This document shows, in pieces, positions 4,336 to 61,064 of a stretch of DNA of 64,000 nucleotides (the first letter of the stretch is position 1; the number at the start of each line of letters is the position of its first letter). The notes below the pieces were generated by a model, which was not told where the DNA came from, did no database searches, and was given only the letters and a program-made list of their open reading frames with translations. The stretch spans positions 4,216,001-4,280,000 of the forward strand of contig OX597822.1 of assembly GCA_951406725.2 (NCBI GenBank), given 5' to 3'. Source of the stretch: Octopus vulgaris (lineage: Eukaryota). The translations under genes were made by a program, and so were the position numbers.

Positions 4336-4407
4336 TACACACACCGAAAGGTCACTGTCTGCTCGCGACTACATAAGCACCGAAAATAATTAGCATGTTA
4401 CATATAT

Positions 4408-4644
4408 ATTTCTTTACTACTCACAAAGGGCTAAACATAGAGGGGACAAACAAGGACGGACAAACGGATTAAGTCGATCACATCGACCGCAGTGCGTAAC
4501 TGGTACTTTATTTATCGACCCCGAAAGGATGAAAGGCAAAGTCGACCTCGGCGATATTTGAAACTCAGAACGTAACGGCAGACGAAATACGGCTACGCCT
4601 TTCGCCCGGCGTGGCTAACGTTTCTGCCTGCTCCCCACCGCCTT
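4408..4644 (-). mobile_element. SINE B2 (tRNA-like head, GTCGACTTTGCCTTTCATCC body, Tx1-like tail)
   Basis: Reverse complement matches the full-length copies at 24638 and 53028. Confidence 0.85.
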
Positions 4645-5379: not shown

Positions 5380-5935
5380 CATGATTCCCCATAAGCATCC
5401 AACAGTTTTAAATAACCGTGAAATATCTACAGGTTCTGCCACTTCAGTTAATACTATTTAGGAATTACATATTGGAAACAAACATAAAACGGCGTATTCA
5501 GCGAGAAGAAACAAATATGTTAACAGTAAAGGGTGGAGAACTGAGCTAAAATACTCTATAATATTTGATCGTATCCCTTTGCGTTCTGAGTTCAAGACTC
5601 ACTGTAGTTATTTGTATTTGCATATCTGCCATCACTTGATTAATTAAACACCATTAATCTTCATGGTTCGTTTTAATTGATTATACCTTTTAAGACGTTA
5701 GACTTAGTCCATGACCCGCTTTAACACCACTACCTGGTCCTTGAGTGTCTTTAGCAGAGTGCACTCCCTTGCAAGCATTCAGCACAATTCGCCTGGTTAC
5801 GAATACCTTCCTCCAATTATTACACCAGTTTCAATGGTCCAGTAAATGGTGATGGGCACGCCCTTTCTTCCTCACTAAACAAATTAAATAACGACTTCAC
5901 TATGAAACTTTGTGTCAATATAAGAAAAAAAACAT

Positions 5936-6000
5936 AAAGCGGCGATCTGACAGAATCGTTAGCAGACCAGGCAAAATGCTCAGCGTTATTTCCTTCATCT
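5936..6000 (+). mobile_element. 5' head of a B-family SINE split by a LINE insertion
   Basis: AAAGCGGCGATCTGACAGAATCGTTAGCAGACCAGGCAAAATGCTCAGCGTTATTTC aligns to the intact head AAGGCGGCGAGCTGGCAGAAACGTTAGCACGCCGGGCGAAATGCTTAGCAGTATTTC (10218). Confidence 0.8.
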
Positions 6001-6391
6001 CTTTTGTTTCTTACGCGTCACACTTGTGTTCGTGGTGAAAATTACTGTTTCTTGGTGTTAATATTGCTAATAAATGTTGTTTCTAATAATTGCTGTTTCT
6101 TGTTAAATTGTTGAATTTCTTAACCGTTGGAGTTTTCATTTGAAAATACTAAGTGCCTGTAGAAAGCATTCCTCCGTTGAAGGGAAGAATGTCGTCTTGT
6201 GAGGAGCCCACCGTTGGAACAGAAATGTTTGTTTCTCCTGTTGAAAGGAAAAATTACATGTTTTCTGGCGAGGAGCCAACTACGAACAAAGAAATAATGG
6301 ATTCCCCCGTTGCAAAAGAATGACAAAATGTATGAGTTATTTGGAGATGTCTGAAAGTTCATCAGAACTTTTACTAGAATAATTCCCGAGT

Positions 6392-7678
6392 TTGCCAAAA
6401 AACAAAGGTATTGTGTCCAAAAGAGTAACTGATGCACCTAGCATCCAAACTGAACAACCGAAAAAAGAAAAAAAATGTTTTGCGTTGGCAGCTGGGGGTG
6501 GAACCCGGCTGCTTTCGACGAATAAGTGTGATTTCATGAAATACAGTGAAATGATGCAAATAAATGATAACGTGGTTAAAATTCAACCAGCAGAGAAATT
6601 ACTATTAGAAGAGAAACGGAAAACGATAATTTTCAAAACTTACTGTTTTCAAAAAAGAAAAATTGAGAAAATTACAGAAGAGAAGATAGAGAAGTGCCTG
6701 AAGCCAATCTGGAGCGACGTGGTTTATCTGACAAGAGGCAAGAAATTCGGAACGGTGGAAGTAAGGTTTACCAACAAAGAAATTGCATAGAAACATTCAG
6801 TAGAATCGCTGATCCCCACCTATATGAGGATGAGAACATCCAGGATTAAAATCACAAGGGTCCCACCGGAAGTGGATCCTATGTGGTTGTTGGCGGCAGT
6901 CCTAATCAAACAGGAAGAGAAAATGACTCTCCTCCAGGTTGCCGCTACCGAAAACGCTAACTGGACTGGTCAAACAGTTAGTCTCCTCATTCAGACTGAC
7001 CCTAAAATAATTGAAGCAATTCCCGAGACAATTGAGATAGGGGAAGAGACCCTCATGGTATTTGTTGAGGGCCGAATGTTTTTTATGTGGTCAATTAGGC
7101 CACATTCGAAGTAACTGCAAGGAAAATGAGGAAGAGGAGAAAGAGGAGAAAAATGAAAAGGAGGAAGAAGAAAAAGAAGAAAAAGATGAGAAGAAAACAA
7201 AAAACAAAAGGAAAATACAATCAACAACTCAACCGAGAGCGGCGTCTACTACTGAACAACGACCAAAAAAGACTGCCAGAAGAGAAAAAGAGGAAAAAGG
7301 CAAAATAGCCGTATACACTAAAGATACTGAGAGACATTCACTTGATTAAACTGCAAAAAAATAAATAGCCCTTCGGAGAAATTTACCAATTATGACGTGT
7401 ATGAAGTCTCAAATAAGACTCATAGAATTTTACAGAACAAATACCGTAAGACAGTATCATCAATGAGATTGGACTTTAATAATTCTATATTTCATGGATT
7501 ACCAGCCCCGATCCCGCGAGAAAAGGAAAAGGTGGAGACTCCCCCTCCACCTGATAATTCTGTGTCGATAATGAGATGGGATTTTAACAATCTATTTCCC
7601 AAGACCGGCCACCTCCGACCCTGTATCAAGAAAAGGTGGAGGGATCCTCTTCACCGCACAGTCCTGATTAACAGGTAA
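6392..7678 (+). pseudogene. Disrupted LINE ORF1 (gag-like, zinc knuckle)
   Basis: Fragments 6392-6790, 6824-7114, 7062-7349, 7397-7678; CFLCGQLGHIRSNC (C-X2-C-X4-H-X4-C) at 7077-7118. Confidence 0.8.
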
Positions 7679-7681
7679 ATC

Positions 7682-8920
7682 ATGTCTATTCACATTGGTT
7701 GTGTAAATGTTCGTGGCCTGATATGGAGTTGGAAGCAAGGGCGCTTCCTAAATGACATCAGGTCGAGAAATTTGGATATAATTGTTGCAACAGAAACCCG
7801 GGTGAAGGGGCCAAGAGATCTGATCCCCCTCCTGAACGGCTACGAGAAATACGTTTCTCCGAGTCGGGCGGGAGGTGGGGTGGGGTGTTGGTCCTACTAA
7901 AAAGAAACCGGGTAGCCGAGAAAAAGTTGTTTTTTTTCTGACCCAGAATGCAGGTTGGTCGTTCTTGACCTGACATTCAGTTGTGGCAAGATAATCAAGC
8001 TAGTTGCTATTTATGCACCCAAAATTATGGGCCCGCAAAGTGAATATTTTCGTGACCTGGGCAAGTTCCTAGCCACGTCGCATTCGCTAGTATTGCTAGG
8101 AGACTTTAATACAATATGTGAAGCACATACAGATTGTAACCCAGGCTTACGGGATCTGCTAAGTCAATTTCAGCTTGCCGATCCATATAGGTTGGAACAC
8201 CCGAACACTCCACAGTGGACGTGATCAAATAGTGACAGGTCTTCCAGAATATATCTAGATAGGATTTTAATTAAAGAAACAGATAAGTCCATAGCCGAGT
8301 GTCCACAGTTTTTTCTGGTCTGCTACACTGACCACAAGATGGTTACTTGTAACCTGACGGTAGATAAGTTGCATAGTCAGGGATCTGGCTACTGGAAACT
8401 CAATACGTCCCTTTTGGCGACTGAGGAGTACAGAAAACGGATCAAGATGTTAATATAGAGGGCATTAACAGGTACCATCATTAATAACAAATGGTGGTAC
8501 ACCCTAAAAAAAGCCATCAAATATGAGTCTATTAGGTTTAGCATAAGTTTAGCTAAGAAGGGGCGTAGAATAGGAGATGGTCTAGTTAAGGAACTAGAAG
8601 AAGCCTGGAGGACTGGTAATGCGAGGGTGAAAACTGGAGTTAAACCAGCATCTTGAAGCCTAACACATGGGAAGTATTGCCAATGCTAAGTTACGTGCAA
8701 TGGGAAGTGAATGAATCAAGGCTGCTGGATGGGCCCGGGTGGTGGAAGCTCGGCAAAGAAATAGTTCCACTATTCAGTCTTTGACGAATCAAAATGGTGT
8801 CTTGGTAAACGAACCCGAGAACATATGTGAGGCCTTTCGGGAGCTATTCGGGGGTGACGCTGCCTTGGTGGTGGGAAAGCCCTCGAGGACTTTCATGCCG
8901 GGTTGCCGTGTCTCTCGGCA
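7682..8920 (+). pseudogene. Disrupted LINE ORF2 N-terminus (AP-like endonuclease), truncated before RT
   Basis: Motifs GCVNVRGL, IIVATET, LVAIYAP, LVLLGDFN, YLDRIL, TDHKMV and GSGYWKLNTSLL across frameshifts and stops. Confidence 0.9.
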
Positions 8921-8997
8921 AGTCACATTATATGTAAAATCATAACGCTTTACTGATCTCATGAGTTGTTCTGTGCATTGTGGGCAATAAAGAAATT

Positions 8998-9163
8998 GGT
9001 ATTTCGTCCGTCTTTATATTCTGAGTTCAAATTCCGCCAAGATCGACTTTGCCTTTCATCCTTTCGAGGTCCATACAATAAGTACCAACTGAAAGCTGAG
9101 ATCGATGTAATCAGCTTATCTCCCCTGAAATTAATGGTTATGTACCAAAATTTGAAATCAATA
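8998..9163 (+). mobile_element. 3' remainder of the split B1 SINE
   Basis: Starts GGTATTTCGTCCGTCTTTATATTCTGAGTTCAAATTCCGCC, exactly where the 5936-6000 head stops. Confidence 0.8.
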
Positions 9164-10217
9164 TGAGAAAAACCAAAATGATGCCGCAGGAAACAAGGGC
9201 AGCAAAATGCTGAAAGCGATAAAGCACTGAACTAAATGCCGCCTGATGTTCTTTTTTTCTCTAGGTGCTGAGTTCGAATCCCGCTGATGTTGGCATAAAA
9301 TAGTTATTATATATGTATTGTGAAATTATTCAGTCGAGTAGAGTACTTTTCTACAAATAGCTCTGCACTGTTGGTAAAACCAATAGTTTACTGAAATAAA
9401 CTGAAGCCGTTTGATATTAACGAAGTAGTGGAGAACAATGCTTCTACACAGAACAAATGTCTAAGACATTTGTTCTGTGCCAATAAACAGTCGGTTTTAC
9501 GCCAGCGAAATACCGACAGTCACTTGGTGCCAATGAAATGTCAACAATCTACTTGAGAAGAAGAAAAAGCCACCAGTTTCATGGCGGCAATAAAACGTCC
9601 ACAATTATTCGATGCCAACAATCGAGAGATATTCGATCCATTCCAACGAAATACCGCTCGACGGCAGGCGTTCAGTCCTGCGTACACACAACCAGTTAGA
9701 ATGGCAACGCACAACCAGTTATCTCGGTGCTATTTGTTCACTCCTAAACAAACATTACAGAAGCCACGGTATGTCTGGAGTTTAGTTTACTGTGGATTTA
9801 TGAAAATAGACAATACATAGCTATTACACATGACCAACAAATAAGGACAGAATGTCTGTGTACTAGCGGTTTCCGACATTAGATAATCTCTTATAACGAC
9901 CATGAACTAAAGTACGGACCACGTCCTGCCACTCGGCCCCCTAAAAAGACCAGTTGAATCTCCCTGAAATTGAATTCTACCATTTAAATATTAGGGAAAA
10001 GATGGGGACAATTGATAATGTAGGACCAGTTTCATTTTCTTTCGTTCTTTTTTCTTCTTTCTCTTCCTTTTTTCTGGATGTGGAGAAAGGAATAACACCA
10101 GCGTCCTTTGGCAGGTCTGCAGCATAGTTAAAGCAGTCATAGCTGCAGCAATGATTTATAAATCGGTTTAATTAGAGCTGACCTGTGACTAAGTAACAAC
10201 AATAATTGAAGCAAGGT

Positions 10218-10620
10218 AAGGCGGCGAGCTGGCAGAAACGTTAGCACGCCGGGCGAAATGCTTAGCAGTATTTCGTCTGCCGCTACGTTCTGAGTTCAAA
10301 TTCCGCCGAGGTCGACTTTGCCTTTCATCCTTTCAGGGTCAATAAATAAAGTACCAGTAATGCACTGGGGTCGATATAATCGACTTAATCCGTTTGTCTG
10401 TCCTTGTTTGTCCCCTCTATGTTTAGCCACTTGTGGGTATTAAAGAAATAGGTATTTCGTCTGCCCCTACGTTCTGAGTTCAAATTCCGCCAAGGTCGAC
10501 TTTGCCTTTCATCCTTTCGGGGTCGATAAACTAAGTACCAGTTGCATACTGGGGTCGATCTAATCAACTGGCCCCCTCTCTCAAAATTTCAGGCCTTGTG
10601 CCTGGAGTAGAAAAGAATAA
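10218..10620 (+). mobile_element. SINE dimer B2-B1
   Basis: Head+body+B2 tail, junction AAAGAAATA|GGTATTTCGTC at 10450/10451, second body with GGCCTTGTGCC tail. Confidence 0.85.
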
Positions 10621-11144
10621 TTAAAGAAAGGTATATATATTTCAAAACCGAATGATATTAATTTGTGTGTGTGTGTGTGTGTGTGTGAATAACACACATA
10701 CACACACACATATGCTCATACCCACACTACTACACTCACACACATGCGTCCAGACACATATACACGCATACCCAATCAATGCCTCATTCACTCCCCCTCT
10801 TTCTCTCTCTTTCTCACAGATACATACACTCACATATTCACACAAACACGCACACATACGCATACACCTATTCGTACACTCACAAACACACAGGGGAGCA
10901 GACATTCACTCACACACATTCACACATACACGTACGACAGAACAACAAACACGGATCCTCTATAGAATGAACCACACAACTTACCAAGACCCCCCCCTAT
11001 TAGCGTACATGGATCTTAACCACATGGATTCGGGTTCAGTCCCACTGCGTAGCACCTTGGCCAAGTGTAGTCCATTCTAGCCTCTTGGCGACTAAACCCT
11101 CTGAGCAAATTTCTTCAACGCCGTTCTATACAAATATATTCTTT

Positions 11145-11325: not shown

Positions 11326-11327
11326 CC

Positions 11328-11648
11328 AAATTCCGCCGAGGTCGACTTTGCCTTTCATCCTTTAGCAGTCGATAAATTAAGTACCAGTTACGCACTGGGG
11401 TTGATATAATCGACTTAATCCGTGTGTCTGTCCTTGTTTGTCCCCTCTATGTTTAGCTCCTTGTGGGTAGTAAAGAAATAGGTATTTCGTCTGCCGCTAC
11501 GTTCTGCACTCAAATTCCACCGATGTCGACTTTGCCTTTCATCCTTTCGGAGTCGATTAAATAAGTACCAGTTGCGTACTGGAGTCGATATAACCGACTG
11601 GCCCCTTCACCAAACATTTCGGGCTTTGTGCCTAGAGTAGAAAACAAT
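11328..11648 (+). mobile_element. 5'-truncated SINE dimer B2-B1
   Basis: Junction AAAGAAATA|GGTATTTCGTC at 11480/11481. Confidence 0.85.
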
Positions 11649-11861
11649 ATATATTTATATATGTACAGAAATAATAATCTGTAATGTGTTTTCGTTCGCA
11701 GTCACGCAGGAAGTAGGAGATTGATAAGAGGAAGGAGTGTGTAACGGTCGGTGACGTTAAATGAAACTGAGAGAAGAGAAAAAAGTACATAGATACATCC
11801 ATATATATATATATAGCCTTTCAGTTTCATTTAACGTCACCGATTGTAGTACACAAACACA

Positions 11862-19940: not shown

Positions 19941-20530
19941 AAAGGACTGGAATTTCCTTTCAGTTAACTATCAGAATACAGAATATTTTTACAACTTCAT
20001 TTCCGTTGCTAAATTATATCCCGAAGACAACATAAATCTATATTGCTGGCAGGAGGTTGTTGAGATATTTTGTGGTATCTGTCTGTCTATCTACATATCT
20101 ATCTTTTCATCTACGTGTCTATCTACGTCTCTGTATATTTGTCTGGTAAGTCTGTATGACTCCTTCCCTGTCTATTTAGATGTCTTTTTGACGAGCCTTA
20201 TGGTTTAATCACCTGATTTATTTTTGTATATCTTCTTGTAAATTCTTTGCTTTCTATCCATCTACATACACTATCTAGACACCTACACATATACGCACAC
20301 CACACACACGCACACACACACATTTCAGAATTATGCCTGAAAAAGTCCAGCAGTCAGGTTCCTCCAGGGGTAAAACAGATTCATTGAAACACAGTTGTAA
20401 TGGAGTGGTAGTACATGTGTTAGTGTGAAGCACAGAAACGTTGTCAATTTTTCAATTTTTTAAATTTTTCCTTCAGTGTCTCTTTAACTCCCTGATTTTT
20501 ACCTGTTCGCTTCACCTTTATATATGCATG

Positions 20531-20632
20531 GATTATGGGGCATATGAGTCTAATTACGTATAGGTAAGTATATATGCATATATATACATATATACTTACC
20601 TATACGTAATTAGACTCATATGCCCCATAATC
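20531..20632. repeat. Fold-back hairpin, perfect 46-bp arms, 10-nt TA-rich loop
   Basis: GATTATGGGGCATATGAGTC...TATATG / CATATA...GACTCATATGCCCCATAATC. Confidence 0.95.
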
Positions 20633-22045
20633 TATTGGGTATTTATAAGTGTATGTATATATTCTTAAAACCCAACTTGTTTGTACATAATTAAGAGCTT
20701 TTGTAAATCCGAGGTCGGACACCAATTAAATTCGGAGTATAATTTGCAGTGTTTATTAGAACAAACTTAAAGAACGAAGATGCACTGTTGACGATTTATT
20801 TAGCTTTCTTGCATTTCGAATAGCCTGACACGACCTAACCGTTGCACGTTGCACATCGCATTGTGCACATTTAATCGCTCCTTCATTTGATCGACAACAA
20901 TACTATAGAAAAAGATGTACTAAGTGCCATATTTTTCTTATCAAAATCAACATGATATATATTTGTCTACAGAGATATAAACAAATGGATAGAGAGGCAG
21001 ACAAACAGATAGATATACTGTAGTAATTACGAAATATTTCCCAACCAGGATTCGAAAACAGTTAATACTCTCGGCGTCTGGGGCTTATATTTGTCTACTA
21101 TGCAGGTTTCTAACTCTGAATGAGTTCTCTTACATTACAACAAGACGGCATATATTGTTACATGACGAGAATGTAATTAATGGAATTCAATTTAATGTGT
21201 ATCTGGTATTTATTTTATCGACTTTTAAAGACTGAAAGTCAAATTTGATTCCACTGAGATATAAACGCAAAATATCAAGATGCTAACAAAATATGATATT
21301 GCATTTTAGTCCTGTTCTTTTACTGACACTAATAATATAATTGTATAGATTTTCAAGAATTTTTATCTCGCATGAAGATTGTCTGCAAATATTTCGTAAA
21401 GTCTTGCCATCAGGATGTTGCATATCACATGGGAATTTTTGTAATTCTATGACTCTTTAGCGATGATAAAGTACATTCCTACGAAGATGCTAGCAACTTA
21501 AGACGTTTTGTTGTTAATAATTCAGTCGATATTACTTTGATAATAAGATAACAAAAATATGCGCTTGAAATAGTAGTAACCTAAATATCTCTTAATCCGT
21601 TTTGCATACTCGGCCATCATTGAAGACGTCTATTTTATGTAGTGACTGAAAACAGGATTTATACTGGAATACATTCTTGATGTTTACTTTAAAATCTCAA
21701 AAAGCGATTTGAGGCCATTACTGCTGTCGCGGCTTTTTCAATTACTCTGCTGAAAGATGTATTAAAGGTGTACTGAGTACTTGAAATAAAGTATTTTATA
21801 TACAGTAACGGTAACTTGAGGCAAGGCTGCTTATCCGCTGATTTATTGACTCCTCGAGCACACATAGTCCTTCCTGTATAGTCTTAATACGGTCAATGAG
21901 CAAATAATGAATACTAGGTTCGAATCCGCCACACTAAACTAATCCTAGTTACCGCTTCACTATCTCAAACTAAATATGTTATTTAAACCTAGAACAGCAG
22001 TTAGCAGCCACTACTGACAGTAAAAATAACATTCTAGCACTACAG

Positions 22046-23152: not shown

Positions 23153-24007
23153 TATATAGATAGAATAGTTAGTCGGCTGTTATGTAGATGTGTATGTGTA
23201 TATGTGTATGTATACATATATGAGGGCCAAGTCTCTCTACCAGGTCTCATCAACGTCAACTGCAACAGGTCGATGATGAATATTGCCTAGAGAATATGTG
23301 TCTAGAGTAGAAAACAATCGTTAGCACGCCGGGCGAAATGCTTAGCGGTATTTCGTCTGTCTTTACGTTCTGAGTTCAAATTCCGCCGAGGTTGACTTTG
23401 CCTTTCATCCTTTCGGATGAATAGAAAGGGACACAGAAAAAAACAAGGAGAAAAACAAGGAGAGAAAAAAAACGTGTGTAGTGGCTAACGATCTATCATG
23501 GCAACTGATTCGGACAGAAGAGTCACACACGAGAAGGAAAGTAGGGGACATATATATATATATATATATATATATTGTTAATGAGATGAGAGAGACAGAA
23601 GATGGAAGATACGAGAATGTTGATGATATTATATGTGTATGTGTGTATGTGTGTGTGTGTTGTGTGTGTGTGTGTGTGTGTGTGTGCCTCGGTCTGTGTC
23701 TGTGTGCGTATGTGTGTGAGAGGGCGAGAGAGAGAGGAATGTTACGTGTAAACCAAGAATTTGTGGGACAGTTTTGTACTTGTTGTGCTGAGATTTGCCC
23801 ATCAATAAGCGATCAATATTACTGACTTGAGAAGATGGAATTTTAAAGCTCTCCGCAAAATACATGAAAACTGTTTAATGAAAGCTAAATAGTACCAGTG
23901 GCTTGTAGAAACATATTTGCGGCAACAGCTATGATGGTTTTTTGCTAGTTTATTTTCCTCACTTGTTTCTGAAATACATTGGTGAGTATGAAGTATGCTA
24001 ATGTATA

Positions 24008-24408
24008 GGCGCAGGAGTGGCTGTGTGGTGAGTAGCTTACTTACAGTCCACATGGTCCCAGGTTCAGTCCCACTGTGTGGCACCTTTGGCAAGTGTCTTC
24101 TACTATAGCCTCGGGCCCACCAAAGCCTTGTGAGTGAATCTGGTAGACGGAAACTGAAAGAAGCCTGTGGTATATATGTAATTGTACATGTATGCGTGTG
24201 TGTGTTTGTGTATTTGTGTTTGTCCCCCCAACATCGCTTGACAACCGATGCCGATGTGTTTACATCTCCGTATCTTAGCGGTTCGGCAAAAGAGACCGAT
24301 AGAATAATTACTGGGGTTACAAAAGAATAAGTCCTGGGGTCGATTTGCTTGACTAAAGGCGGTGCTCCAGCATGGCTGCAGTTAAATGACTGAAACAAGT
24401 AAAAGAGT
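24008..24408 (+). mobile_element. Full-length family-A SINE
   Basis: Complete head through ...ATGACTGAAACAAGTAAAAGAG tail. Confidence 0.9.
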
Positions 24409-24637
24409 AATGAATATATTGTAGACATACAACCACAAGAATTTATGCAAAAATAACCATGATTTTATAACTACCTCAGGTGCCAGGCCGAATGCTTAGG
24501 GTCTTAGACTTAACGATAATTTTTAGGTCAGGAGTTCAATTCCTCTCTGTCCATGTGTCACACTAACGATGTTCCACTGGTCAATGGGTGAGAGGCCCGA
24601 GACGGTGTCTATGTCAGCTTAGACGGTGTCTATGTCA

Positions 24638-24869
24638 AGGCGGCGAGCTGGCAGAAACGTTAGCGTGCCGGACGAAATGCTCAGCGGTATTTTGTCTGCC
24701 GTTACGTTCTGAGTTCAAATTCCGCCGAGGTCGACTTTGCCTTTCATCCTTTCGGGGTCGATAAATTAAGTACCAGTTATGCACTGGGGTCGATATAATC
24801 GACTTAATCCGTTTCTCTGTCCTTGTTTGTTCCTTCTGTGTTTAACCCCTTGTGGGCAGTAAAGAAATA
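24638..24869 (+). mobile_element. Full-length SINE B2 with 13-bp TSD
   Basis: GGTGTCTATGTCA at 24625-24637 and 24870-24882. Confidence 0.92.
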
Positions 24870-28195: not shown

Positions 28196-29197
28196 GTTCG
28201 ACAAAATAATGGAAACACCCTAAAATTTCAAACAGAATTATTTTAATATAGGGTAGAACAGCCTTTGGCAGTAATTACAGTTTGAATCTACGCGGTATGG
28301 ACTCGTACAAAGTTTCAATTATTTCCAAAGGAATTTTTATCCATTCTTGAGCTAAAACAGTCTCCAGTTCTTGTAGTGATGATGATGGAGGATATCGACT
28401 CCTTACTTGTTTTCCTAAAATGCACCATAAATGTTCAATAATACTAAGATTTGAGGACTGTTGTGGCCAGATAAGTTGTTCAACTTCACTAGAATGTTCC
28501 TCGTGCCATTCAGTAATAACTTTAGCTTTGTGAATTGGTGCATTATCATTCTGAAAGACTGCGTTTCCCTCCGGAAACAGCTCCGCAACAATAGGATGAA
28601 TTTGATCAGATTAAATGCTTAGACTTGACTATTAATTCTGCCATGAAGGGAAACCATTGGGCTAGCAGATATCCAAGATATAGCCCACCAGATCATCACA
28701 GATCCTCCTCCATGTTTGACAATTGGAACAAGGCAGTCAGGGTCAAATGCTTCTTTTGGCTGTCTCTACACGTATACTCGGCCGGTGGTCGGAAATAAGA
28801 TAAAGGATGACTCGTCCGAGCAAATAACATTCGTCCACTGCTCTAGGGACCAATTCTGTAGGTTTTTACTCCAGTCTAAATGCTTTGCAACATTTGCTTT
28901 TAAAAGTAGTGGTTTTCGATTGCAGCCATCCCATGAAATCCGACATTGTGCAGCTCCTGGCGAACAGTTTTTTGTGGAAACTGAGTTATCGAAGTGGTCA
29001 TTAAGCTCTGCAGTACTTTTGGGAGCTGTGCTTTTGTGATCCTTTCTAACAATTTGCGTAAGAGTCCGACAGTCCCTATTTGAAACTTTTGATTTTCTTC
29101 CGGGGTTTTGTTTCGACGAGGAGGGTTTTTCCTCTTTCTCAAAGGCTGTCATTACTTTCGAGACAGTACTTCTTGATACATCAAACATTTCGAGCCT
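28193..29197 (-). mobile_element. Tc1-like transposon remnant between (TA)n tracts
   Basis: Minus-strand peptides [52 protein letters not shown]; TIR-like GGGTTCGACAAAATAATGGAAACACC. Confidence 0.9.
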
Positions 29198-31024: not shown

Positions 31025-31062
31025 TTGTTCTTATTTTAGTGCCCTTTGACTTGAAATAATAT

Positions 31063-31283
31063 ATTTCTTCACTATCCCACAAGGCTAAACATAGAAGGGA
31101 CAAACAAGGATAGACAAACGGTTAAGTCGATTACATAGACCCCAGTGCGAAACTGGTACTTTACTTATCGACCCCGAAAGAATGAAAGGCAAAGTCGACC
31201 TCGGCGGAATTTGAACTCAGAATGTAACGACAGACGAAATACCGCTAAGCATTCCGCCCGGTGCGCTAACGTGTCTGCCAGCT
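31063..31283 (-). mobile_element. SINE B2
   Basis: Reverse complement of B2 body and tail. Confidence 0.85.
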
Positions 31284-31297
31284 GAAGTGAAGAACGA

Positions 31298-31835
<538 letters not shown>

Positions 31836-31898: not shown

Positions 31899-32018
31899 AA
31901 ATTCTGAGTTTCGGATGCCGAAGTGGAAATCCACAACACCATCTCTTCGGTTATCTGGCCAGATAACCGAAGAGATGGTGTTGTGGATTTCCACTTCGGT
32001 ATCCGAAACTCAGAATTT
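31899..32018. repeat. 120-bp loopless palindrome (one mismatch)
   Basis: Centre TATCTGG|CCAGATA at 31958/31959. Confidence 0.95.
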
Positions 32019-37017: not shown

Positions 37018-37212
37018 TAAAGTTTACGAAAATAAACAAAAGACGAAGGCAGGTGGTGTACAAAACAAACAGATGTATTAGTATAACGCTCAGGAATAGA
37101 AAAAGTCTTTTACGTTTCGAGCCTACGCTCTTCTACAGAAAGAGACACAGAAAAAAAACAAGGAGAGAAACAAGGAGAGAAAAAATGTGTGTAGTAGCTA
37201 ACGATCTATCAT
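37016..37212 (-). mobile_element. Short (TA)n-associated Penelope-like element with degenerate hammerhead (37107-37142)
   Basis: CTTT CTGTAGA A GAGC gtag GCTC GAAA CG TA AAAG; related copies at 13983, 23420, 47955 and 54340. Confidence 0.6.
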
Positions 37213-37304
37213 GACGTCTGATATATACAGTATATATACATGGGCAACACACACACACACGTACGTACATACATCTATTGCATACATGTTTTTGTACGCA
37301 TACA

Positions 37305-39560: not shown

Positions 39561-39821
39561 ACCTTCCTTCAAATATGTGGAAGAGTTTGAAATGATACCA
39601 AATGTAAATTTTAGGGACAATATTATCAAAAGAGCGTTGGACAAAACTCTGTACTACATTTCGTTACGTTCGAGGCTGCGTTATATATCATCCCTCATGT
39701 TGACTAGATCGATTCAATCACGTGACAGGATCTTTTGCTAAATACCTCTGTCCAAGCAGTGTTCATATCTATCATGGCTAAGTATTAAATATATATTTAT
39801 TGTTTCGCTAAGCAGCCAGCA

Positions 39822-39894
39822 GGGGAATTAGCTCAAGTGGTAGAGCGCTCGCTTAGCATGTGAGAGGTACCGGGATCGATACCCGGATTCTCCA
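39822..39894 (+). tRNA. tRNA-Ala (anticodon AGC)
   Basis: 73-nt cloverleaf GGGGAAT...ATTCTCCA, G3:U70 alanine identity pair, AGC at 39855-39857, followed by a T7 Pol III terminator. Confidence 0.96.
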
Positions 39895-39901
39895 TTTTTT
39901 T
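39895..39901 (+). terminator. Pol III oligo-T terminator
   Basis: TTTTTTT directly after the tRNA. Confidence 0.8.
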
Positions 39902-40169
39902 ATTATTTTGCGGCTACTTAATTTTGCAATTCCAGTAGGCTGGAAATAAAAATTGGCCTTGATGGGATTTGAATTCAGAAAATAAAAGAAAACGGAACAA
40001 ATACTAAAAAGCATATTTATTTGACGCACTTACGATTCTGCCACTCCGCTACTTTTTCATGCTGCAATAAAAAATAAAATAAAATAAAAAATTGTCTCAT
40101 AATATTTTTATCTTATTTCATTTTTATTTTTATTTTTATTTATTTAAATTTTTTTTTTTTTTTTTTTTG

Positions 40170-40582: not shown

Positions 40583-41129
40583 AATCGTGTTACACAATGT
40601 AATTGTTTCTGATATAGGAACGAGACCTAAAATTTGGTCGAAAGGGATTCATCAATAAAATGACGTCAGTACTTGACAGGTACTTTATTTTTGTCGACTC
40701 CAGAAAGAATTTGAACTCGGGGCGTTAAGGGCCGGAAGAAAACAGCGTAATGAATTTTATCCGATGACCTAACGAGTATGTCAATTCACCCCTCTAACAT
40801 CTCAACATGGAGAATACGAATATGATTCCCTTACCTTTTACTTGCTAAACGAGGGCTCTACTGATTTGGTTAACTCCCCAGCAATATTTTAATATAAATG
40901 TTTCCAATATTGACACAAAGAAACTAATTTTAAGAGGAGAGGGTAAGTTGGAACGATCGACTCGAGCACTTGACTAACTTTATTTTATCGACACCGAAAG
41001 GATAGAATGGAAAACTACTCTCAGCGGGATTTGAACTGAGAAAGAAAAAAGAACGGAACCAATATCACGAGGTATCTTGTCTGACAATAAAACGAGTGTG
41101 CCAATCCACAGCCGCAAAATAATAAAAAA

Positions 41130-41202
41130 TGGAGAATCCGGGTATCGATCCCGGTACCTCTCACATGCTAAGCGAGCGCTCTACCACTTGAGCTAATTCC
41201 CC
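41130..41202 (-). tRNA. tRNA-Ala (anticodon AGC), identical inverted copy
   Basis: Exact reverse complement of 39822-39894; T6 terminator on the minus strand. Confidence 0.96.
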
Positions 41203-42336
41203 TGCTAGCTGCTAAGCGAAACAATAAATATATATTTAATACTTAGGCATGATAGATATGAACACTGCTTGGCCAGAGGTATTTAGCAATAAGTTCTTAT
41301 TTCTGCTACCTTCAAGGAATGGAAAATAGCACCTGTCACATCCGTGCCTTCCCTAAAGGCTTCGGCGAAATGAGTGAAATGTATTTATAATCGATGAACC
41401 TAACCTGGATCATAGAACAGGTTTTCTAGTGAGCGATTACTAGCAGCACTTATTTTCGCTGTTTCGTCCCGGTCCATCCGACCCTAAGTGAGCTGATCTA
41501 CAATCAAAAGCATTTCAGCTGTGATCATATTGTCCACCAACCATTCTTCTCAACTAAAGCCTACACTTGATCCTGTCTTTAAGGCTATGGTGTGATTTAC
41601 AAAATACTTAACAGCTGTTATTAACCAGTAAGCGACTGCAGTCAGTTTGTTGTATTTTGTTGTGTCTTCATGCATTCTGAGTCAAAATTCCTACAAGAGT
41701 TTGATCCAGTGTTATCTTTCATTTCTCCAGAATCGACCAAAACTAGAAATTGTGGAGTGGATCCATTGACTATATCTGCTCTGAAAAAAGTACGACTTTG
41801 TTAAACGTCAAAATTATGCAAAACTTAGCAAGGATTTCATTTTTTTAAATATTATGAAGTCACAAAAATCAACTGATGAGACTTCGTAGTAAAACAGGTC
41901 ATAAGCAGGCATAACTGTTGTAGTTCAGGAATTCCCTTCACAACCGCAAATCCTTAGTCGTTGTTCTAAAATGAATATGATTTGGTAACATGTACCACGT
42001 TTTTCATTAACTCTTTTAGACGCAAGCAGACATAGACAAGACATTCTCTCGGTCACAGTGAGACAGAAACGTTGTGACAGCTGGTGATGGAGAGATAGAG
42101 ATGGAGACAGACACAGAGGCAGAGACAGAGGTGGCGAGAGCTGCACCAACACTCGGCTGTTTACACATTTGCAACTAAATAGACCGGAATAATGTGAAAT
42201 GAGGAGAATAGAATGCACCGCCCAAATCTATGAGTATATTTGATCTTGAAACAAAACTTTAACAACAAGATCGTGAGCAAACATTTGTGTGTGTATGTGT
42301 GTGCGTGCGCATATAGATAAATAGATAGATAGATAA

Positions 42337-44520
<2,184 letters not shown>

Positions 44521-44675
44521 TTAGTAGCCCCCCCACCAACATGACCTCCCGTCTACCAAATCTTCTCAAGGCTTTTGTCGGGTCAAGGCTATAGTTGAAG
44601 ACCCTTGCCGAAGATATCACGCAAGTGATTGGGAAGCAAACCTCTTACCACAGTTCATGTGTATGCATGTGTGTG

Positions 44676-49916: not shown

Positions 49917-50852
49917 AACAAATTGACAGAGACAAAGAAAAACAGCAAAACAGAGACAGAACAGCAAGAGAGAGAGACAGAAAGACTAACAGATAGACAC
50001 CTCGTCAGACTAAAATAAAAGGGTAGAATTCATACTGATTTCAAATTCTGGTGCAAGGCCAGCAATTTCAAGGGTATTGGGTAAATCGATTGCATCGACC
50101 CCAGTGCTCAACTGGTACTTATTTTATCTACCCCGAAAGGACGGCCTCGACGGAATGTTAACTAAGTGCGTAAAGACGGACGAAATGCCACTACGCATTT
50201 TGTCCGGTTCACTAACCATTCTACCAGCTCACCACATTAATTTAAATATTTCATAAATTATTACTTTGCAAGAGGAAAACTCCAAAATTCTTGCCGGCGT
50301 GGCTGTGTGGTAAGAAGCTTGCTTCCCGATCACAATAAGATTATTAAAAATATATAAGGTCCTTCCCGAGTTATATAGACTCATAGATCCGGTTTCCCAG
50401 TTTCCATGATGTATAAAACAGACGAAATACGGCTACGCATTTCGCCCGGTGTCCTAACGTTTCTGCCAGCTCGCCGCCTAACCTCCACTACTGATAATAG
50501 AGGAAGGGGTAAAAAGAAGTGGTCTTATGCTGTAATTGAAATGTTATCGCAATTTATTAGAGTATTTACAAATCGTTGAAGAAATACATCGATAGAAATT
50601 CAATTTTCTTTATTAGAAAACTTTGCTCGATTGCTCTTCTGTTTAGTGTCTTGCTATCTTATTTTCATTTACGTGTGCGTACGTTTGTTAATTGATAGTT
50701 AATTATACTATATACTCATTTCGAGCTGTATTAGTTCAAGGCATATAGATTAATAGCATCACCAACTTACTAAAGATTAAGTGGTAATTTGAATGTGATT
50801 GTCAATTCAAGTGAAAACATTCTTTTTAGCAGAAATATATTCTATGAGCGGA

Positions 50853-51066
50853 AGGCGGCGAGCTGGCAGAAACGTTAGCACGCCGGGCGAAATGCGTATC
50901 CGTATTTCGTCTGCCGATATGTTCTGGGTTCAAATTCCGCCGAGGTCGACTTTGCCTTTCATCCTTTCGGGGTCGATAAATTAAGTACCAGTTACGCACG
51001 GGGTCGATGTAATCGACTTAATTCGTTTGTCTGTCCTTGTTTGTCCCCTCTGTTTAGCCCTTGTGG
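50853..51066 (+). mobile_element. SINE B2 (in duplicated segment)
   Basis: Near-identical to 53028-53245. Confidence 0.85.
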
Positions 51067-51132: not shown

Positions 51133-51824
51133 TTGTGTCTGTGTTTCCCCCTCCCCCCATCACCGCCTGGCAACTGGTACTAGTGTTTTTATGGTCATGT
51201 AACTTAGTGGTTCGGTTAAAGAGCATGATAGAATAAGTGTCAAGCTTTAAAAAATAAGTCGTGAGGTCGATTTGTTCGACTAAAAGCTTGTGCTCCAGCA
51301 TGGCCGCAGTCACATGACTAAAACAAACAAAAGAATAATAGAATGATTATAACATAAATTATAAATAAACTCTGTTGAGCGTGTGTTATGTGTGTTTGGA
51401 AGCATGTGCGATTTGGTTTCTCTTTTTTTTCTCTCATAACATTTCATACAGATCTACTAATTATTTTATTATGCAGATCTCAACTAAGTCTGTGACTTAA
51501 TTTCAATTCTCGCTTAGAAGTTTATCATTTCACTTCTTCTCCTTTATTATTAGTACACCACTATCACATCACGTCGTTCTTGTGATTTTCTTAACGATTG
51601 GGTTCAGATGAAGGAGTAGTGCGCTTGTCTACGCCCACCAATGCCAACGATGTAAGCAATAAACATGATTGACTCACCTTCACACTGCATGCGATGATAA
51701 TATGCTAGAGACAGCCCTAAGCCCAAAACTCAACTATAACTTTCATTCCATTCAAAACTGCGATGTTGATACCAGTTGTAATTGAAACTAGATACACTGA
51801 CAATAAGATTATTAAAAATATATA

Positions 51825-52072
51825 AAGGTCCTTCCCGACTTATATAGACTCATAGATCCGGTTTCCCAGTTTCCATGATGTATAAAACCCCCACCTAGAC
51901 GGGACGCCGGTCCTTCACGGGATTACTCATTTTTGTCAGCCGAGTGGACTGGAGCAGCGTGAAATGAAGTGTTTTGCTCAAAAACACAACGCGTCGCCCG
52001 GTCCAGGAATCGAAGCTGCAATCTTACAATCATGAGTCCAACACCCAAACCACAAAGCCATGCACCTGCACT
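51825..52072 (-). mobile_element. SINE, head D + tail V
   Basis: Central block matches 1325-1370; tail matches 1835-1915. Confidence 0.75.
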
Positions 52073-52075
52073 ACT

Positions 52076-52635
52076 GATAATCCTTTCTACTATTGGCACA
52101 GGGCCTGAAATTTTGGAGGGAGAGGACCAGTCGATTACATCGACCCCAGTGCGTAACTAGTACTTATTTCATCAACCTCGAACGGAAGGATGGCAAATTC
52201 GAACTCAGGGCGTAAAGGCGGGCGAAATACCTATTTCTTTACTACCCACAAGGGGCTAAACACAGAGGGGACAAACAAGGACAGAAAAACGGATTAAGTC
52301 GATTATATCGATTACCAGTGCGTAACTGGTACTTATTTAATCGACCCCGAAAGGATGAAAGGCAAAGTCGACCTCGGCGGAATTTGAACTCAGAACATAG
52401 CGGCAGACGAAATACCTATTTCAATTTCTTTACTACCCACAAGGGGCTAGACACAGAGAGGACAAACAAGGACAGGCAAATGGATTAAGTCGATTACATC
52501 GACCCCCGTGCGTAACTGGTACTTAATTTATCGACCCCGAAAGGATGAAAGGCAAAGTCGACCTCGGCGGAATTTGAACTCAGAACGTAGCGGCAGACGA
52601 AATACGGCTACGCATTTCGCCCGGTGTGCTAACGT
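52076..52635 (-). mobile_element. SINE trimer B2-B2-B1
   Basis: Two GAAATA|GGTATTTCG junctions at 52417/52416 and 52232/52231. Confidence 0.85.
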
Positions 52636-53027
52636 TTCTGCCAGCTCGCCGCCTAACCTCCACTACTGATAATAGAGGAAGGGGTAAAAAGAAGTGGTCT
52701 TGTGCTGTAATTGAAATTTTATCTCAATTTATTAGAGTATTTACAAATCGTTAAAGAAATACATCGATAGGAATTCAATTTTCTTTATTAGAAAACTTTG
52801 CTCGATTGCTCTTCTATTTAGTTTCTTGCTATCTTATTTTCATTTACGTGTGTGTACGTTTGTTAATTGATAGTTAATTATACTATATACCCATTTCGAG
52901 CTGTATTAGTTCAAGGCATATAGATTAATAGCATCACCAACTTACTAAAGATTAAGTGGTAATTTGAATGTGATTGTCAATTCAAGTGCAAACATTCTTT
53001 TTAGCAGAAATATATCCGATGTGTGGA

Positions 53028-53259
53028 AGGCGGCGAGCTGGCAGAAACGTTAGCAAACCGGGCGAAACGCGTAGCCGTATTTCGTCTGCCGTTACGTTCT
53101 GGGTTCAAATTCAGCCGAGGTCGACTTTGCCTTTCATCCTTTCGGGGTCGATAAATTAAGTACCAGTTACGCACGGGGGTCGATGTAATCGACTCAATCC
53201 GTTTGTCTGTCCTTGTTTGTCCCCTCTGTGTTTAGCCCCTTGTGGGAAGTAAAGAAATA
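53028..53259 (+). mobile_element. Full-length SINE B2 with imperfect 16-17-bp TSD
   Basis: TATATCCGATGTGTGGA (53011-53027) versus TATATCCGGGTGTGGA (53260-53275). Confidence 0.9.
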
Positions 53260-54259
53260 TATATCCGGGTGTGGATGCTTTGCCGCTTTTAGAAACGGTG
53301 CAGAGGAATTGGTCAGTTTGAAGATGTTGGCATCATTTTATTCCTCGGTGTTGTTTTTGCATTTGTTTTATATTCTTTTTTGTTTGTTGGTTGTTTGTTT
53401 CTTTTACAAATGAAGGCCAGTAAAAGTGAATGAACAAACCTATACTGCGAATGTGTCGCATGTTATGAATATGAAATTTTCCCAAGAGGGACAGGTTCCA
53501 GTCTTACGTGAAGTTGTTGTCTAAGCAGTCATCTCAGATCAAGAAAAATTATAAATAAAATAGACCTGTAACTATCACGTGTTAATTTTCTAGCATTTTT
53601 TTTTCGAACATAATGTATCTAGAACTATGTAATCGAATCTAGGTTTATATTATCAAGTCGGTAGATTGTGAACTGAGGAAGATTTGTTTTGGCTGCTATT
53701 TCAAACAGGTTGAGCACCCATGCAGAAATGTTCTCGTTTGCTACAAAGTTATAACTGCGACCAAAAACGAAGTTGAAGTCATGACGTTTATATTATTTAT
53801 GGCAACACATCATCAAAGAACAATGGTCTGAGAATTAACATACATTTAATGTCAATCGTGATGATCCCCACAATGCACAGTTTAATAACCTCGGGGTTGT
53901 TGGAGAAAACAGATTTGGGGGGACGGGGATTGAAACTCGCATTTTTTTTTCGGAGGAAGGAAAGCCGTGTTCATAACTTTTTCAATGCCTCCGAGACAGG
54001 TGCATGGATAAGGGAATTTAACCTGAGACCAGTAAACTGACTCATAAGCTTACAACACAATGGGTTTCGTTAAACTCAAACAAGGAACTGGTGCTGGCAT
54101 AACCTGGGTAACATCTTAAGTCTACAACCCAAAAAGGGAAATAGGCCACCCTGCTGTGTTTTATACTATTTTCGTCAACACTCACAGTGCTTTAGTCGAA
54201 CTGGTATTTATACAAGAATAAACTTGCCGAAGGCAACGCGCAGTGGGCTGGCTAACCAA

Positions 54260-55493: not shown

Positions 55494-55740
55494 TATTTCG
55501 TTTTGGGATTTGGTTTGCAAGATTCGTTATGAGTTCGTGTGTTGAAGCATATTCTGTTGTGTCTGGGGAGAGTCATTTTCTTTTTGTGCCTTATTATTTA
55601 ACACACTCACCGGTAAAATTTCCACTTATTTCTTATTTTTTATTTTCTAAAAATAAGAAATAAGTGGAAATTTTACCGGTGAGTGTGTTAAATAATAAGG
55701 CACTAAAAGAAAATGACTCTCCCCAGACACAACAGAATAT
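55494..55740. mobile_element. Fold-back short element (92-bp arms, 8-nt loop) with flanking duplication
   Basis: Arms 55549-55640 and 55649-55740; AATATACAATGA at 55482-55493 and 55736-55747; unfolded relative at 22686-22806. Confidence 0.8.
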
Positions 55741-59864: not shown

Positions 59865-61064
59865 TAAGACACTGCTCCCATCGCTCTATGCATCTGTGAA
59901 GACATCGTCTGTAGAAGTCGGTAGGTTGCGTCTGGAGCCAAGACTTTACTTCAGAAATAAATTCTTCATCATCCGAAGAGTGCTTTCCCCTTCCAAAATG
60001 GCTTCATGGTTGCAAAGACGTGCAAGTCAGATGGTGCGAGGTTGGGAGAGTAAGGAGGATGAAGAAGGATTTCATAGCTTCAGGGGTGTGCTTTCATCTC
60101 GGCAACATGCGCATTGTGAACTAAGGTGTTGTCTTGGAGGATGCGGACTCCTTTGGTCAGCATGCCATGCCTCTCTGCTTTGATGGCGTCCCACAATTTC
60201 TGCAACGGAAAAGCATAATATTCCTCATTAATCGTGGTGCCATTTGCCAGAATATCCATCATCGCTACTTCGCGCTGATCCCAAAAGACTGAGCATCACC
60301 TTGTCTGCTGAGGGTTGGACACGAGCCTTCTTTGGAGATAATGAGTTATCATGCTTCCATTGCTTCGACTGGACTTTTGTCTCAGGATCATAGTGATGGA
60401 CCCATGTTTCATTCTGTGTGATAAGTCTACCGAAAAAGTCCTCTTCGTTTTCTTGGCACATTGCCAAAAGAGCCTGGAAGCAATTGACTCGTTCTTGCTT
60501 CTGAAAAGGTGTGCGCATCCGAGGATCCATCGTGCAGACAACTTCCACATGTGAAAATGGTCGTGAATGATTTTTTTTCCACGGACCCCTAACTTATCTT
60601 CACTTCCTGCACTAGTTGCCGAATAGTAATATAGCTATTCTCCAAAATGACGGCTTTCATTTTATGGATGGCGTCGTCATCAATGGCGGAATGTGGTCGT
60701 CCAGCAATAGGAGCGGTTTTCACCGATGTCCTACTACATTTGAACGGACGATGCCAGTGCTTGACTACGTCTTATGACGGTGCATCATCACCACAAACGT
60801 CTTTCATTTTCATCAAAAGTTTCTTTTTGTGCACGACCTTTCAAGTATAAGAACCTGATCACTGATCTGCATTCAGCTGCCTCCATTATAACACTTTAGT
60901 CCACTTCAGCAGCCGTAATAAACAAACGAATACTAGTCGAAAGCAGCAATTTACAATGTGACATGTGGTGACATGTAGAGACGTATGATTATACCTGTAC
61001 AAGTTCCGTTTCCTGCAATAACCCGGATGGAGGTACAGGAGAAATCTTTAATGAACACCCCTCG
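59865..61064 (-). mobile_element. Degenerate near-full-length mariner element
   Basis: ITQNETWVHHYDPETKVQSKQW, TINEEYY, ILQDN motifs; terminal CGAGGGGTGTTCATTAAAG. Confidence 0.9.

What the first reader, a model, noticed from the sequence alone, without database searches (positions are those of the whole stretch)
53211..53259. SINE B2 carries a Tx1-like LINE 3' tail: candidate SINE/LINE partnership
Seen: the B2 tail CCTTG---TTTGTCCCCTCTGTGTTTAGCCCCTTGTGGGAAGTAAAGAAA aligns to the 3' end of the LINE at 42427-42378 (minus), CCTTGTAATTTGTTCTATCTGTGTGCAGCCCTGTGTGGCTAATAAAGAAA, at 37 of 47 aligned columns by hand count. The other LINE ends similarly (TGTGGGCAATAAAGAAA, 8979-8995). B1 copies have the same head and body but a different tail. 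Established: shared 3' tails mark SINE mobilisation by stringent LINEs (L2, CR1, RTE), whereas mammalian L1 relies on poly(A). Inference: B2 arose when B1 acquired a Tx1 tail and now uses Tx1 machinery.
Basis: partly seen in the sequence, partly recalled or inferred. Interest (0 to 1): 0.8.

Follow-up and report, generated by a model that had tools for sequence, protein, structure and literature searches.

The report
SINE shares LINE tail and target
A short jumping repeat (SINE), likely of an octopus, ends in nearly the same 47 bases as a nearby LINE retrotransposon, and it and a second LINE sit at exactly the same base inside other copies of that repeat, so it likely borrows the machinery of a site-seeking LINE whose landing site the repeat itself carries.

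Summary
The match is real. The B2 tail and the 3' end of LINE A (42427-42378, minus) agree at 37 of 47 columns, and 0 of 1000 shuffles reach the score for any of 8 B2 tails. B1 tails score at shuffle level.

LINE B (about 6003-8997) splits one B1 SINE between SINE bases 49 and 50, with an inner duplication (13 of 18) and the host's outer TSD (14 of 15). Four of 8 complete B2 tails join another SINE unit at that same base. The attached B1 remnants differ from each other more than the B2 units do.

Best reading: B2 is a B1 derivative with an L1/Tx1-group tail, mobilised by such LINEs, at least one of which cuts in the SINE's own head. LINE A (79%, in a (TATC)n tract) is likely a cousin of the partner.

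Not shown: Tx1 placement by tree, a conserved tail stem-loop (no covariation), genome-wide counts, function. Ten literature searches found no animal SINE with a Tx1/L1 tail; Repbase and Dfam were not searchable. Verdict: new variant of a known kind, interest 0.58.

The parts
53027..53259 (+). Full-length B2 SINE (233 nt): tRNA-like head with A- and B-box-like motifs, conserved central body, LINE-like tail 53211-53259
53211..53259 (+). B2 tail, 37 of 47 identical to the LINE A terminus
53012..53275 (+). Imperfect TSD around this B2 copy (53012-53027 and 53261-53275)
42733..43749 (-). LINE A: open C-terminal 338 codons of ORF2 with zf-RVT (E 2e-8), 5'-truncated; 60% identical to an Argonauta hians protein
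42376..42732 (-). LINE A 3' UTR; the last ~50 nt match the B2 tail and end in AATAAAGAAA with no poly(A)
43757..44146 (.). (TATC)n tract abutting the truncated 5' end of LINE A; a second tract at 42313-42375 abuts its 3' end; both begin CATATC
5936..6002 (+). 5' half of a B1 SINE (head to about base 67), with B1-type diagnostic bases; 5985-6002 is the left copy of LINE B's duplication
6003..8997 (+). LINE B: decayed L1/Tx1-group element with 5' UTR, broken ORF1 with a CCHC knuckle (7077-7124), broken ORF2 from 7682 (endonuclease and linker), RT missing, then about 77 terminal nt ending TGTGGGCAATAAAGAAATT
8998..9160 (+). 3' half of the same B1 SINE, starting at SINE base 50; host outer TSD at 5915-5929 and 9158-9172 (14 of 15)
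10218..10615 (+). Dimer 1: full B2, then B1 from base 50 (junction 10450/10451); TSD around the whole unit (10201-10217 and 10616-10632)
11327..11649 (+). Dimer 2: 5'-disrupted B2, then B1 from base 50 (junction 11480/11481)
52082..52654 (-). Trimer: full B2, B2 from base 50 (starts 52416, 6-nt slip at the junction), B1 from base 50 (starts 52231); TSD around the whole unit (52656-52673 and 52064-52081, 17 of 18)
24637..24869 (+). B2 monomer with a perfect 13-nt TSD at a site resembling SINE base 50 (C^GGTGTCT versus C^GGTATTT)
4407..4639 (-). B2 monomer followed by TATAT; no significant TSD
31062..31283 (-). B2 monomer followed by TATAT; no significant TSD

Best explanation
B2 is a SINE whose last 47 bases match the 3' end of a LINE, and it is likely a B1 derivative that took this tail from a LINE of the L1/Tx1 group and is likely copied by that group's reverse transcriptase, at least one family of which likely cuts inside the SINE's own head, where LINE B and four B2 tails join at the same base.

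Shown: the tail match at both termini; LINE B splitting one B1 copy at base 49/50 with inner and outer duplications; 4 of 8 B2 tails joining a SINE unit at base 50; TSDs of 13-18 nt.

Inferred mechanism: Pol III transcribes B2 from its head. ORF2p of a LINE of this lineage recognises the terminal segment. Its endonuclease nicks at TTAGC^GGTATTTCG, the edge of the loop of a 13-bp inverted repeat in the SINE head, and target-primed reverse transcription follows with a stagger of about 17 nt. Because B2 contains the target, the duplicated bases can anneal to the cDNA's own bases 50-67, which gives a seamless B2-B1 dimer. Alternatively, Pol III reads from the inserted B2 head through the downstream B1 half (dimer 1 has no TTTT) and the composite is retroposed as one unit. 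Repeating the step gives the trimer.

B2 monomers followed by TATAT may have been placed by a sister family such as LINE A, which sits in (TATC)n. LINE A is likely a relative of the partner, not the partner itself.
For: Tail: 37 of 47; 0 of 1000 shuffles for 8 of 8 B2 tails; B1 tails at shuffle level. Length and identity fall in the range accepted for mollusc SINE-LINE pairs (35-61 bp, 72-95%; PMC11481361 passages). Both LINEs keep AATAAA and B2 has lost it, which fits a LINE-to-SINE direction.

LINE type: zf-RVT in A and zf-CCHC above cut-off in B's ORF1. B's ORF2 pieces match full-length EN-RT relatives at E about 1e-41 to 1e-46. One such relative (P0008) hits human L1 ORF2p at E 1e-68 versus R2 at 5e-16.

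Target: the host B1's outer TSD is 14 of 15 (p 0.002 against 3000 random flank pairs). The inner duplication is 13 of 18 in register; only 21 of 100,062 masked positions match as well, SINE copies included. Both halves carry the same B1-type bases at 3 of 3 diagnostic columns in the duplicated stretch. Junctions at base 50 lie at 8998, 10451, 11481, 52231 and 52416.

Age: the trimer's B1 remnant differs from those of the dimers by 30 of 150 and 37 of 150, while the attached B2 units differ by 15 of 184 and 12 of 154 (Fisher p 0.002 and 7e-5). So younger B2 joined older B1 more than once.
Against: Only 64 kb and two LINE copies were seen; the site-specific LINE is a single, old, RT-less copy. 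LINE B matches B2 over only 17-19 nt, partly the poly(A) signal. An unrelated pyrimidine-rich repeat scores 37 against LINE A's 40. Without the last 10 nt the match weakens (1-225 of 1000 shuffles). Tail folding is no better than shuffles in 6 of 7 folds, and the 4-pair consensus has 0 compensatory changes.

In both composites with a head (2 of 2) the head is B2-type, with no B1 head upstream. The second units of dimers 1 and 2 start with mostly B2-type bases. A simple in-place insertion does not predict this, and dimers 1 and 2 may share one master (p 0.12). LINE B's inner duplication is not significant as a free local alignment (p 0.08). Three of 8 B2 tails are followed by TATAT, not the site.
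Confidence: 0.65

Rival explanations
1. The tail is a LINE-derived relic from a template switch, and mobilisation is relaxed (A-rich end only), by L1/Tx1-group or other LINEs.
For: No covarying stem-loop. L1-clade LINEs rarely share tails with SINEs (3 SINEs among more than 800 LINEs; PMC3472496 part 1). LINE B's match is mostly the poly(A) signal plus A-rich end.
Against: Neither B2 nor the two LINEs ends in poly(A). The terminal 17-mer is kept in two diverged LINEs and in B2 (the pattern was built from them, so the count is circular). The shared site still points to this LINE group.
Confidence: 0.15
2. The composites come from template jumping or recombination, not DNA targeting. RT copying a B1 RNA stalls, or the RNA is cut, at the head hairpin and jumps to a B2 3' end, making one or a few composite masters. 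The LINE B site is then a coincidence.
For: TSDs enclose the whole dimer and trimer. Heads are B2-type in 2 of 2. The junction lies at the loop of a strong hairpin. Unequal recombination between TSDs is cited as a source of SINE arrays (PMC11481361 passage).
Against: LINE B has a B1 head upstream plus inner and outer duplications, the signature of insertion into DNA at that base. The B1 remnants are more divergent than their B2 partners. Trimer units 1 and 2 differ at 13 of 183 sites, so they are not a recent duplication.
Confidence: 0.12
3. The tail similarity is chance or convergence of pyrimidine-rich and poly(A)-signal sequence, and B2's partner is an unrelated LINE.
For: A non-LINE-end repeat scores 37 against 40. 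The match weakens without the last 10 nt. No unrelated LINE 3' UTR was available as a control in the window.
Against: The match is anchored at both termini, 0 of 1000 shuffles reach it, B1 tails do not match, and the shared site is independent of the tail.
Confidence: 0.05
4. The direction is reversed: LINEs that insert into SINEs captured the B2 tail as a new 3' end.
For: LINE B does insert into this SINE family.
Against: Capture from base 50 would bring the SINE body along, and neither LINE end holds it. The LINEs have the intact poly(A) signal. LINE B's host is older than the B2 copies.
Confidence: 0.03

Closest known systems
SINEU / Tx1-Mar of crocodilians (Kojima 2015, PMC4494074; main text parts 1-4 of 5 read)
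   Same: A SINE inferred to use Tx1 machinery because it shares the LINE's target inside another transposon; tandem copies from sequential insertion.
   Different: SINEU has snRNA heads and poly(A), and no LINE sharing its 3' end was found. Its target is a Mariner DNA transposon. Here the SINE has a tRNA-like head, shares a tail, and the target lies in the SINE's own head.
ZmSINE2/3 with LINE1-1_ZM (maize) and SINEX-3_CR with L1-1_CR (Chlamydomonas) (Ohshima 2012, PMC3472496 part 1 of 3; Table 1 of PMC3747384)
   Same: SINEs sharing about 50-80 terminal nt with an L1-clade LINE.
   Different: Those are plant and algal. The maize pair has a covarying hairpin, which was not found here. Table 1 lists no animal SINE with an L1 or Tx1 tail, and no target specificity.
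Target-specific Tx1 families: Tx1L in Tx1D, Keno (U2), Kibi and Koshi (microsatellites) (as summarised in PMC4494074)
   Same: LINE B at a fixed base of a repeat; LINE A in a microsatellite.
   Different: The target is a SINE, which is not among the targets named in that text. Clade placement was not tested by tree.
Octopus OR1/OR2 CORE-SINEs (Ohshima and Okada 1994; paper not seen, only cited in PMC4824008, PMC4758252 and PMC5804259 passages)
   Same: B1 and B2 likely are, or are close to, these families (recalled, not tested). tRNA-Core SINEs dominate octopus genomes (PMC8967140 passages).
   Different: No partner LINE or target site was given for them in the passages seen. No reference sequence was available to compare.
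Bivalve HCD-SINE/LINE pairs (Martelossi 2024, PMC11481361 passages)
   Same: Tail swapping on a conserved body; homology of 35-61 bp at 72-95%.
   Different: Their partners are CR1, CR1-Zenon, L2 and Nimb; 'Tx1' occurs 0 times in the main text.

Membership tests
Tx1 clade (LINEs A and B) | ORF2 with AP-type endonuclease, RT and C-terminal zinc-binding domain of the L1 group | tested here: met
   Met in pieces. zf-RVT in A. EN-linker of B matches EN-RT proteins at E about 1e-41 to 1e-46. RT is seen only in relatives such as P0002, 70% identical to A. The best solved-structure hit of relative P0008 is human L1 ORF2p.
Tx1 clade (LINEs A and B) | ORF1 of type I with a CCHC knuckle (consistent with Tx1 in non-mammalian animals; PMC5203782 passages) | tested here: met
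   zf-CCHC E 5.9e-5, above cut-off, in LINE B. No RRM detected. LINE A has no ORF1 left.
Tx1 clade (LINEs A and B) | RT phylogeny groups with Tx1L/Keno/Kibi rather than L1 | not testable with these tools
   Neither copy keeps RT, and no relative carried a clade name.
Tx1 clade (LINEs A and B) | Target-sequence preference | tested here: inconclusive
   One LINE B copy at SINE base 50 plus 4 B2 junctions there; one LINE A copy in (TATC)n. One copy per family.
Stringent SINE/LINE pair | Shared 3'-terminal sequence | tested here: met
   37 of 47 with LINE A, 0 of 1000 shuffles.
Stringent SINE/LINE pair | Conserved tail stem-loop with compensatory changes | tested here: not met
   0 of 4 predicted pairs covary in 9 sequences; 6 of 7 single folds at shuffle level. 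Low power.
Stringent SINE/LINE pair | Overlapping activity periods | not testable with these tools
   No genome held. In the window B2 is 3-10% diverged, LINE A's frame is open for 338 codons, and LINE B is decayed.
Stringent SINE/LINE pair | Tail required for trans-mobilisation | not testable with these tools
   Needs a bench assay.
tRNA-derived CORE-SINE (OR1/OR2) | tRNA-derived head with A and B boxes | tested here: inconclusive
   A- and B-box-like motifs are visible (box consensus recalled). ARAGORN and Rfam call only two tRNA-Ala genes, not the SINE heads.
tRNA-derived CORE-SINE (OR1/OR2) | CORE domain in the body | not tested
   No reference sequence was found in the supplements searched. 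A 31-46 nt body segment recurs in 4 metagenome contigs with other flanks (L001-L004), so it is a widely conserved domain, but which one was not determined.

The most novel reading that the evidence does not exclude
An animal Pol III SINE carries both the 3' recognition tail of a Tx1-group LINE and, in its own tRNA-like head, the cutting site of that LINE's endonuclease. Each new SINE copy makes a landing site for the LINE and for further SINEs, a self-reinforcing loop that builds the dimers and trimers. It would be the first animal L1/Tx1 lineage with sequence-specific RNA recognition shown through a SINE partner.
Probability: 0.4. Interest if true: 0.75.

Novelty: new variant of a known kind. 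Interest (0 to 1): 0.58.

Why it matters
Whether L1-group LINEs ancestrally recognised a specific RNA end or just poly(A) is an open question (PMC3472496, PMC3747384), and the listed tail-sharing cases are plant and algal. An animal SINE with such a tail makes the question testable in a Tx1-type element. SINEs fill about 12% of the Octopus vulgaris genome and L1-Tx1 has 80 families, 13 recently active (PMC13282606), yet no partner was assigned in the papers seen. A SINE that carries its partner's target would explain nested SINE arrays, would affect repeat annotation and dating, and would add a programmable-looking site-specific retrotransposon lineage to look at.

Tried and rejected
Genome-scale data: no whole genome is held, so there are no consensus-level or copy-number tests. 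No read-level or cross-species data were obtained, which leaves empty sites, LINE flank statistics and the true partner's tail open. The run search listed 20 of 24 rows holding LINE A, from 11 studies and 5 coded organisms; no RNA holder listed.

Collection scans for octopod DNA found nothing useful. Viral contigs gave 0. Genome contigs gave 0. The metagenome protein scan gave 0 confirmed of 130. The metagenome DNA scan gave 4 loci that share only the SINE body segment.

Clade naming failed: no Tx1 label among relatives. A Pfam scan of 63 window frames (mostly from the 78 listed, the rest left out as SINE- or LINE-overlapping) found no other LINE to serve as a control UTR. Tail structure was not supported.

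Rejected: that 8979-8995 is only a decayed B2 tail, because the 58 nt upstream do not align to B2 and the host head is B1-type. Rejected: that the B2 tail evolved from the B1 tail, because 60-867 of 1000 shuffles reach the scores of 5 B1 tails. Rejected: 50852 and 50479 as independent insertions, because they belong to a local duplication of 52606-53202.

Literature: 10 searches found no report of an octopus SINE-Tx1 pair or a SINE-head target. Repbase Reports, Dfam, SINEBase, subscription papers (Ohshima and Okada 1994, 2005; Kojima and Fujiwara 2004) and the Zenodo library of PMC13282606 were not seen and could hold it. One supplementary file of PMC4824008 was not searchable.

Full report
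Setting. The window is 36.7% GC and rich in microsatellites and SINEs. LINE A's protein is 60% identical to an Argonauta hians protein, and a 46-residue piece is 80% identical to an Octopus bimaculoides model. The host is therefore inferred to be an octopod. No genome is held, so all positional evidence comes from this 64 kb.

The SINEs. About 20 pieces of one SINE family were found and 21 were aligned. They share a head and body to about base 170 and then split into a B2 tail and two B1-type tails. The nine B2 units are 3-10% from their majority; B1 monomers are 12-40% away over the shared part. That fits B2 being the younger derivative. A segment of the body recurs in four unrelated metagenome contigs, as expected of a conserved SINE domain. 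Identity with the octopus CORE-SINEs OR1/OR2 is recalled and was not tested.

The observation. The alignment reproduces: 37 of 47 columns, anchored at the AAAGAAA end of both elements, and 0 of 1000 shuffles of either side reach it for 8 of 8 complete tails. B1 tails do not match. Three results weaken it. An unrelated pyrimidine-rich repeat scores 37 against LINE A's 40 in a 2130-tile scan. Removing the last 10 nt leaves the alignment in place but lets 1-225 of 1000 shuffles reach it. LINE B matches over only 17-19 nt. The tails show no supported structure: 6 of 7 folds are at shuffle level and 0 of 4 consensus pairs covary. Both LINEs end in AATAAAGAAA without poly(A), whereas 0 of 8 B2 tails keep AATAAA. 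This fits a LINE-to-SINE transfer with decay of a signal that a Pol III transcript does not need (inference).

The LINEs. LINE A is the last 338 codons of ORF2 with zf-RVT plus a 357-nt 3' UTR, flanked by (TATC)n on both sides. LINE B has a broken ORF1 with a CCHC knuckle above the Pfam cut-off and a broken ORF2 endonuclease-linker. It then jumps to about 77 terminal bases and lacks RT. Both relate to P0002 (A 70%; B 50% and 38%). A full-length relative hits human L1 ORF2p at E 1e-68 and R2 at 5e-16. They are L1-group elements with a Tx1-like ORF1 (PMC5203782 passages). No named reference was available for a tree.

The bases after LINE B's tail are a B1 SINE starting at its base 50, and the bases before LINE B are a B1 head. 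The two halves are one insertion. A 14-of-15 TSD encloses them (p 0.002). The head runs about 18 bases past base 49, duplicating the start of the 3' half at 13 of 18 positions in register, with matching B1-type diagnostic bases. As a free local alignment that inner duplication alone is not significant (p 0.08). LINE B thus inserted at TTAGC^GGTATTTCG. Four of the 8 complete B2 tails join a SINE unit at the same base (10451, 11481, 52231, 52416). One more sits at a look-alike site with a perfect 13-nt TSD (24870), and three are followed by TATAT. The site is at the edge of the loop of a 13-bp inverted repeat.

Independence. The trimer's B1 remnant differs from those of dimers 1 and 2 by 30 of 150 and 37 of 150 bases, while the B2 units attached to them differ by 15 of 184 and 12 of 154 (p 0.002 and 7e-5). 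Trimer units 1 and 2 differ at 13 of 183. Dimers 1 and 2 cannot be separated from a common master (p 0.12). So at least three events (LINE B into B1, B2 onto B1, B2 onto B2), and probably four, used one base. Against simple in-place insertion: TSDs enclose the whole dimer and trimer, both surviving heads are B2-type, and two second units begin with mostly B2-type bases. Homology-guided 5' joining, or read-through from the inserted B2 promoter followed by retroposition of the composite (dimer 1 has no TTTT), would explain this. Both routes start with an insertion at base 50. Template jumping at the hairpin explains the dimers but not LINE B.

Mechanism. Shown: tail homology, LINE group, one LINE insertion and four SINE junctions at one base, TSDs of 13-18 nt. 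Inferred: tail capture by B1 to give B2, recognition of the tail by ORF2p, endonuclease cutting in the SINE head, and use of more than one sister family (a microsatellite-seeking one like A and a SINE-seeking one like B). Confidence in the combined reading is 0.65. For the weaker claim that the tail is L1/Tx1-derived it is about 0.85.

Comparison and novelty. SINE-LINE tail sharing is textbook. Ohshima found only three SINEs with L1-clade tails, all plant or algal (PMC3472496 part 1 of 3), and the 2013 table lists no Tx1 pair (PMC3747384 passages and first part of the tables). SINEU was tied to Tx1-Mar by target alone, with no shared tail found (PMC4494074 parts 1-4 of 5). Mollusc surveys name CR1, L2 and Nimb partners (PMC4824008, PMC4758252, PMC11481361; passages). 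The 2026 O. vulgaris annotation counts L1-Tx1 and SINE families without pairing them (PMC13282606 parts 1-2 of 3 and a supplement search). PMC5804259, PMC5786205, PMC8967140, PMC7140322 and PMC5753468 were seen as passages only. Two earlier notes of this scan describe LINEs at a fixed site of a SINE in other genomes. They are unchecked leads that suggest SINE targeting recurs, which lowers the surprise of that part. Ten searches found no report of this pair, but Repbase, Dfam and older subscription papers were out of reach.

Verdict. Observation confirmed; interpretation partly supported and extended by a shared target inside the SINE. New variant of a known kind, interest 0.58, or 0.75 if the self-targeting, tail-specific partnership holds genome-wide (probability 0.4).

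Noticed in passing
window 6003-8997: LINE B keeps ORF1 and the endonuclease but lacks RT and almost all of the 3' UTR, retaining only about 77 terminal nt. If the deletion predates insertion, it is a non-autonomous element and the short terminus suffices for mobilisation.
   Followed up: no
window 39735-39915 and 41110-41289: Two tRNA-Ala(AGC) genes in a 97% identical inverted duplication. Their anticodon loop TTAGC matches the loop of the SINE head hairpin next to the insertion site, so tRNA-Ala genes might be the head's source or an ancestral target.
   Followed up: partly
window 23300-23423: A B1-type tail runs directly into another SINE copy at about base 19, a second kind of SINE-SINE junction seen once.
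   Followed up: no
window 284-710, 24004-24415, 31397-31794, 44147-44624 and others: A second abundant tRNA-headed SINE family of about 400 nt, some copies with an internal microsatellite (possibly the octopus OK family, recalled). One copy disrupts the head of dimer 2 and one abuts LINE A's 5' microsatellite.
   Followed up: no
window 50332-51066 versus 51800-51888 and 52606-53202: A local duplication (96-98%) with an internal deletion that copies two SINE heads; not independent insertions.
   Followed up: partly
window 23470-23509 and 37183-37222: A pyrimidine-rich repeat that scores nearly as well against the B2 tail as LINE A does. The 37100-37140 part resembles a Penelope-like terminal repeat motif (recalled, untested).
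   Followed up: partly
window 28278-28610 (-) and 60231-60593 (-): DDE transposase fragments (DDE_3 E 1.8e-10; Transposase_1 E 7e-4). Several short inverted-repeat, MITE-like elements lie elsewhere (20528-20635, 31899-32018, 55549-55740).
   Followed up: no
L001-L004: Metagenome contigs of other organisms share 31-46 nt of the SINE body at 89-100% identity but have different heads and tails.
   Followed up: partly
P0007-P0104: Large families of unnamed EN-RT proteins of about 1150 aa, around 40-45% identical to the cephalopod-like P0002, many on long ENA contigs: a broad sister lineage of unknown hosts whose 3' ends would show whether the terminal motif is ancestral.
   Followed up: no
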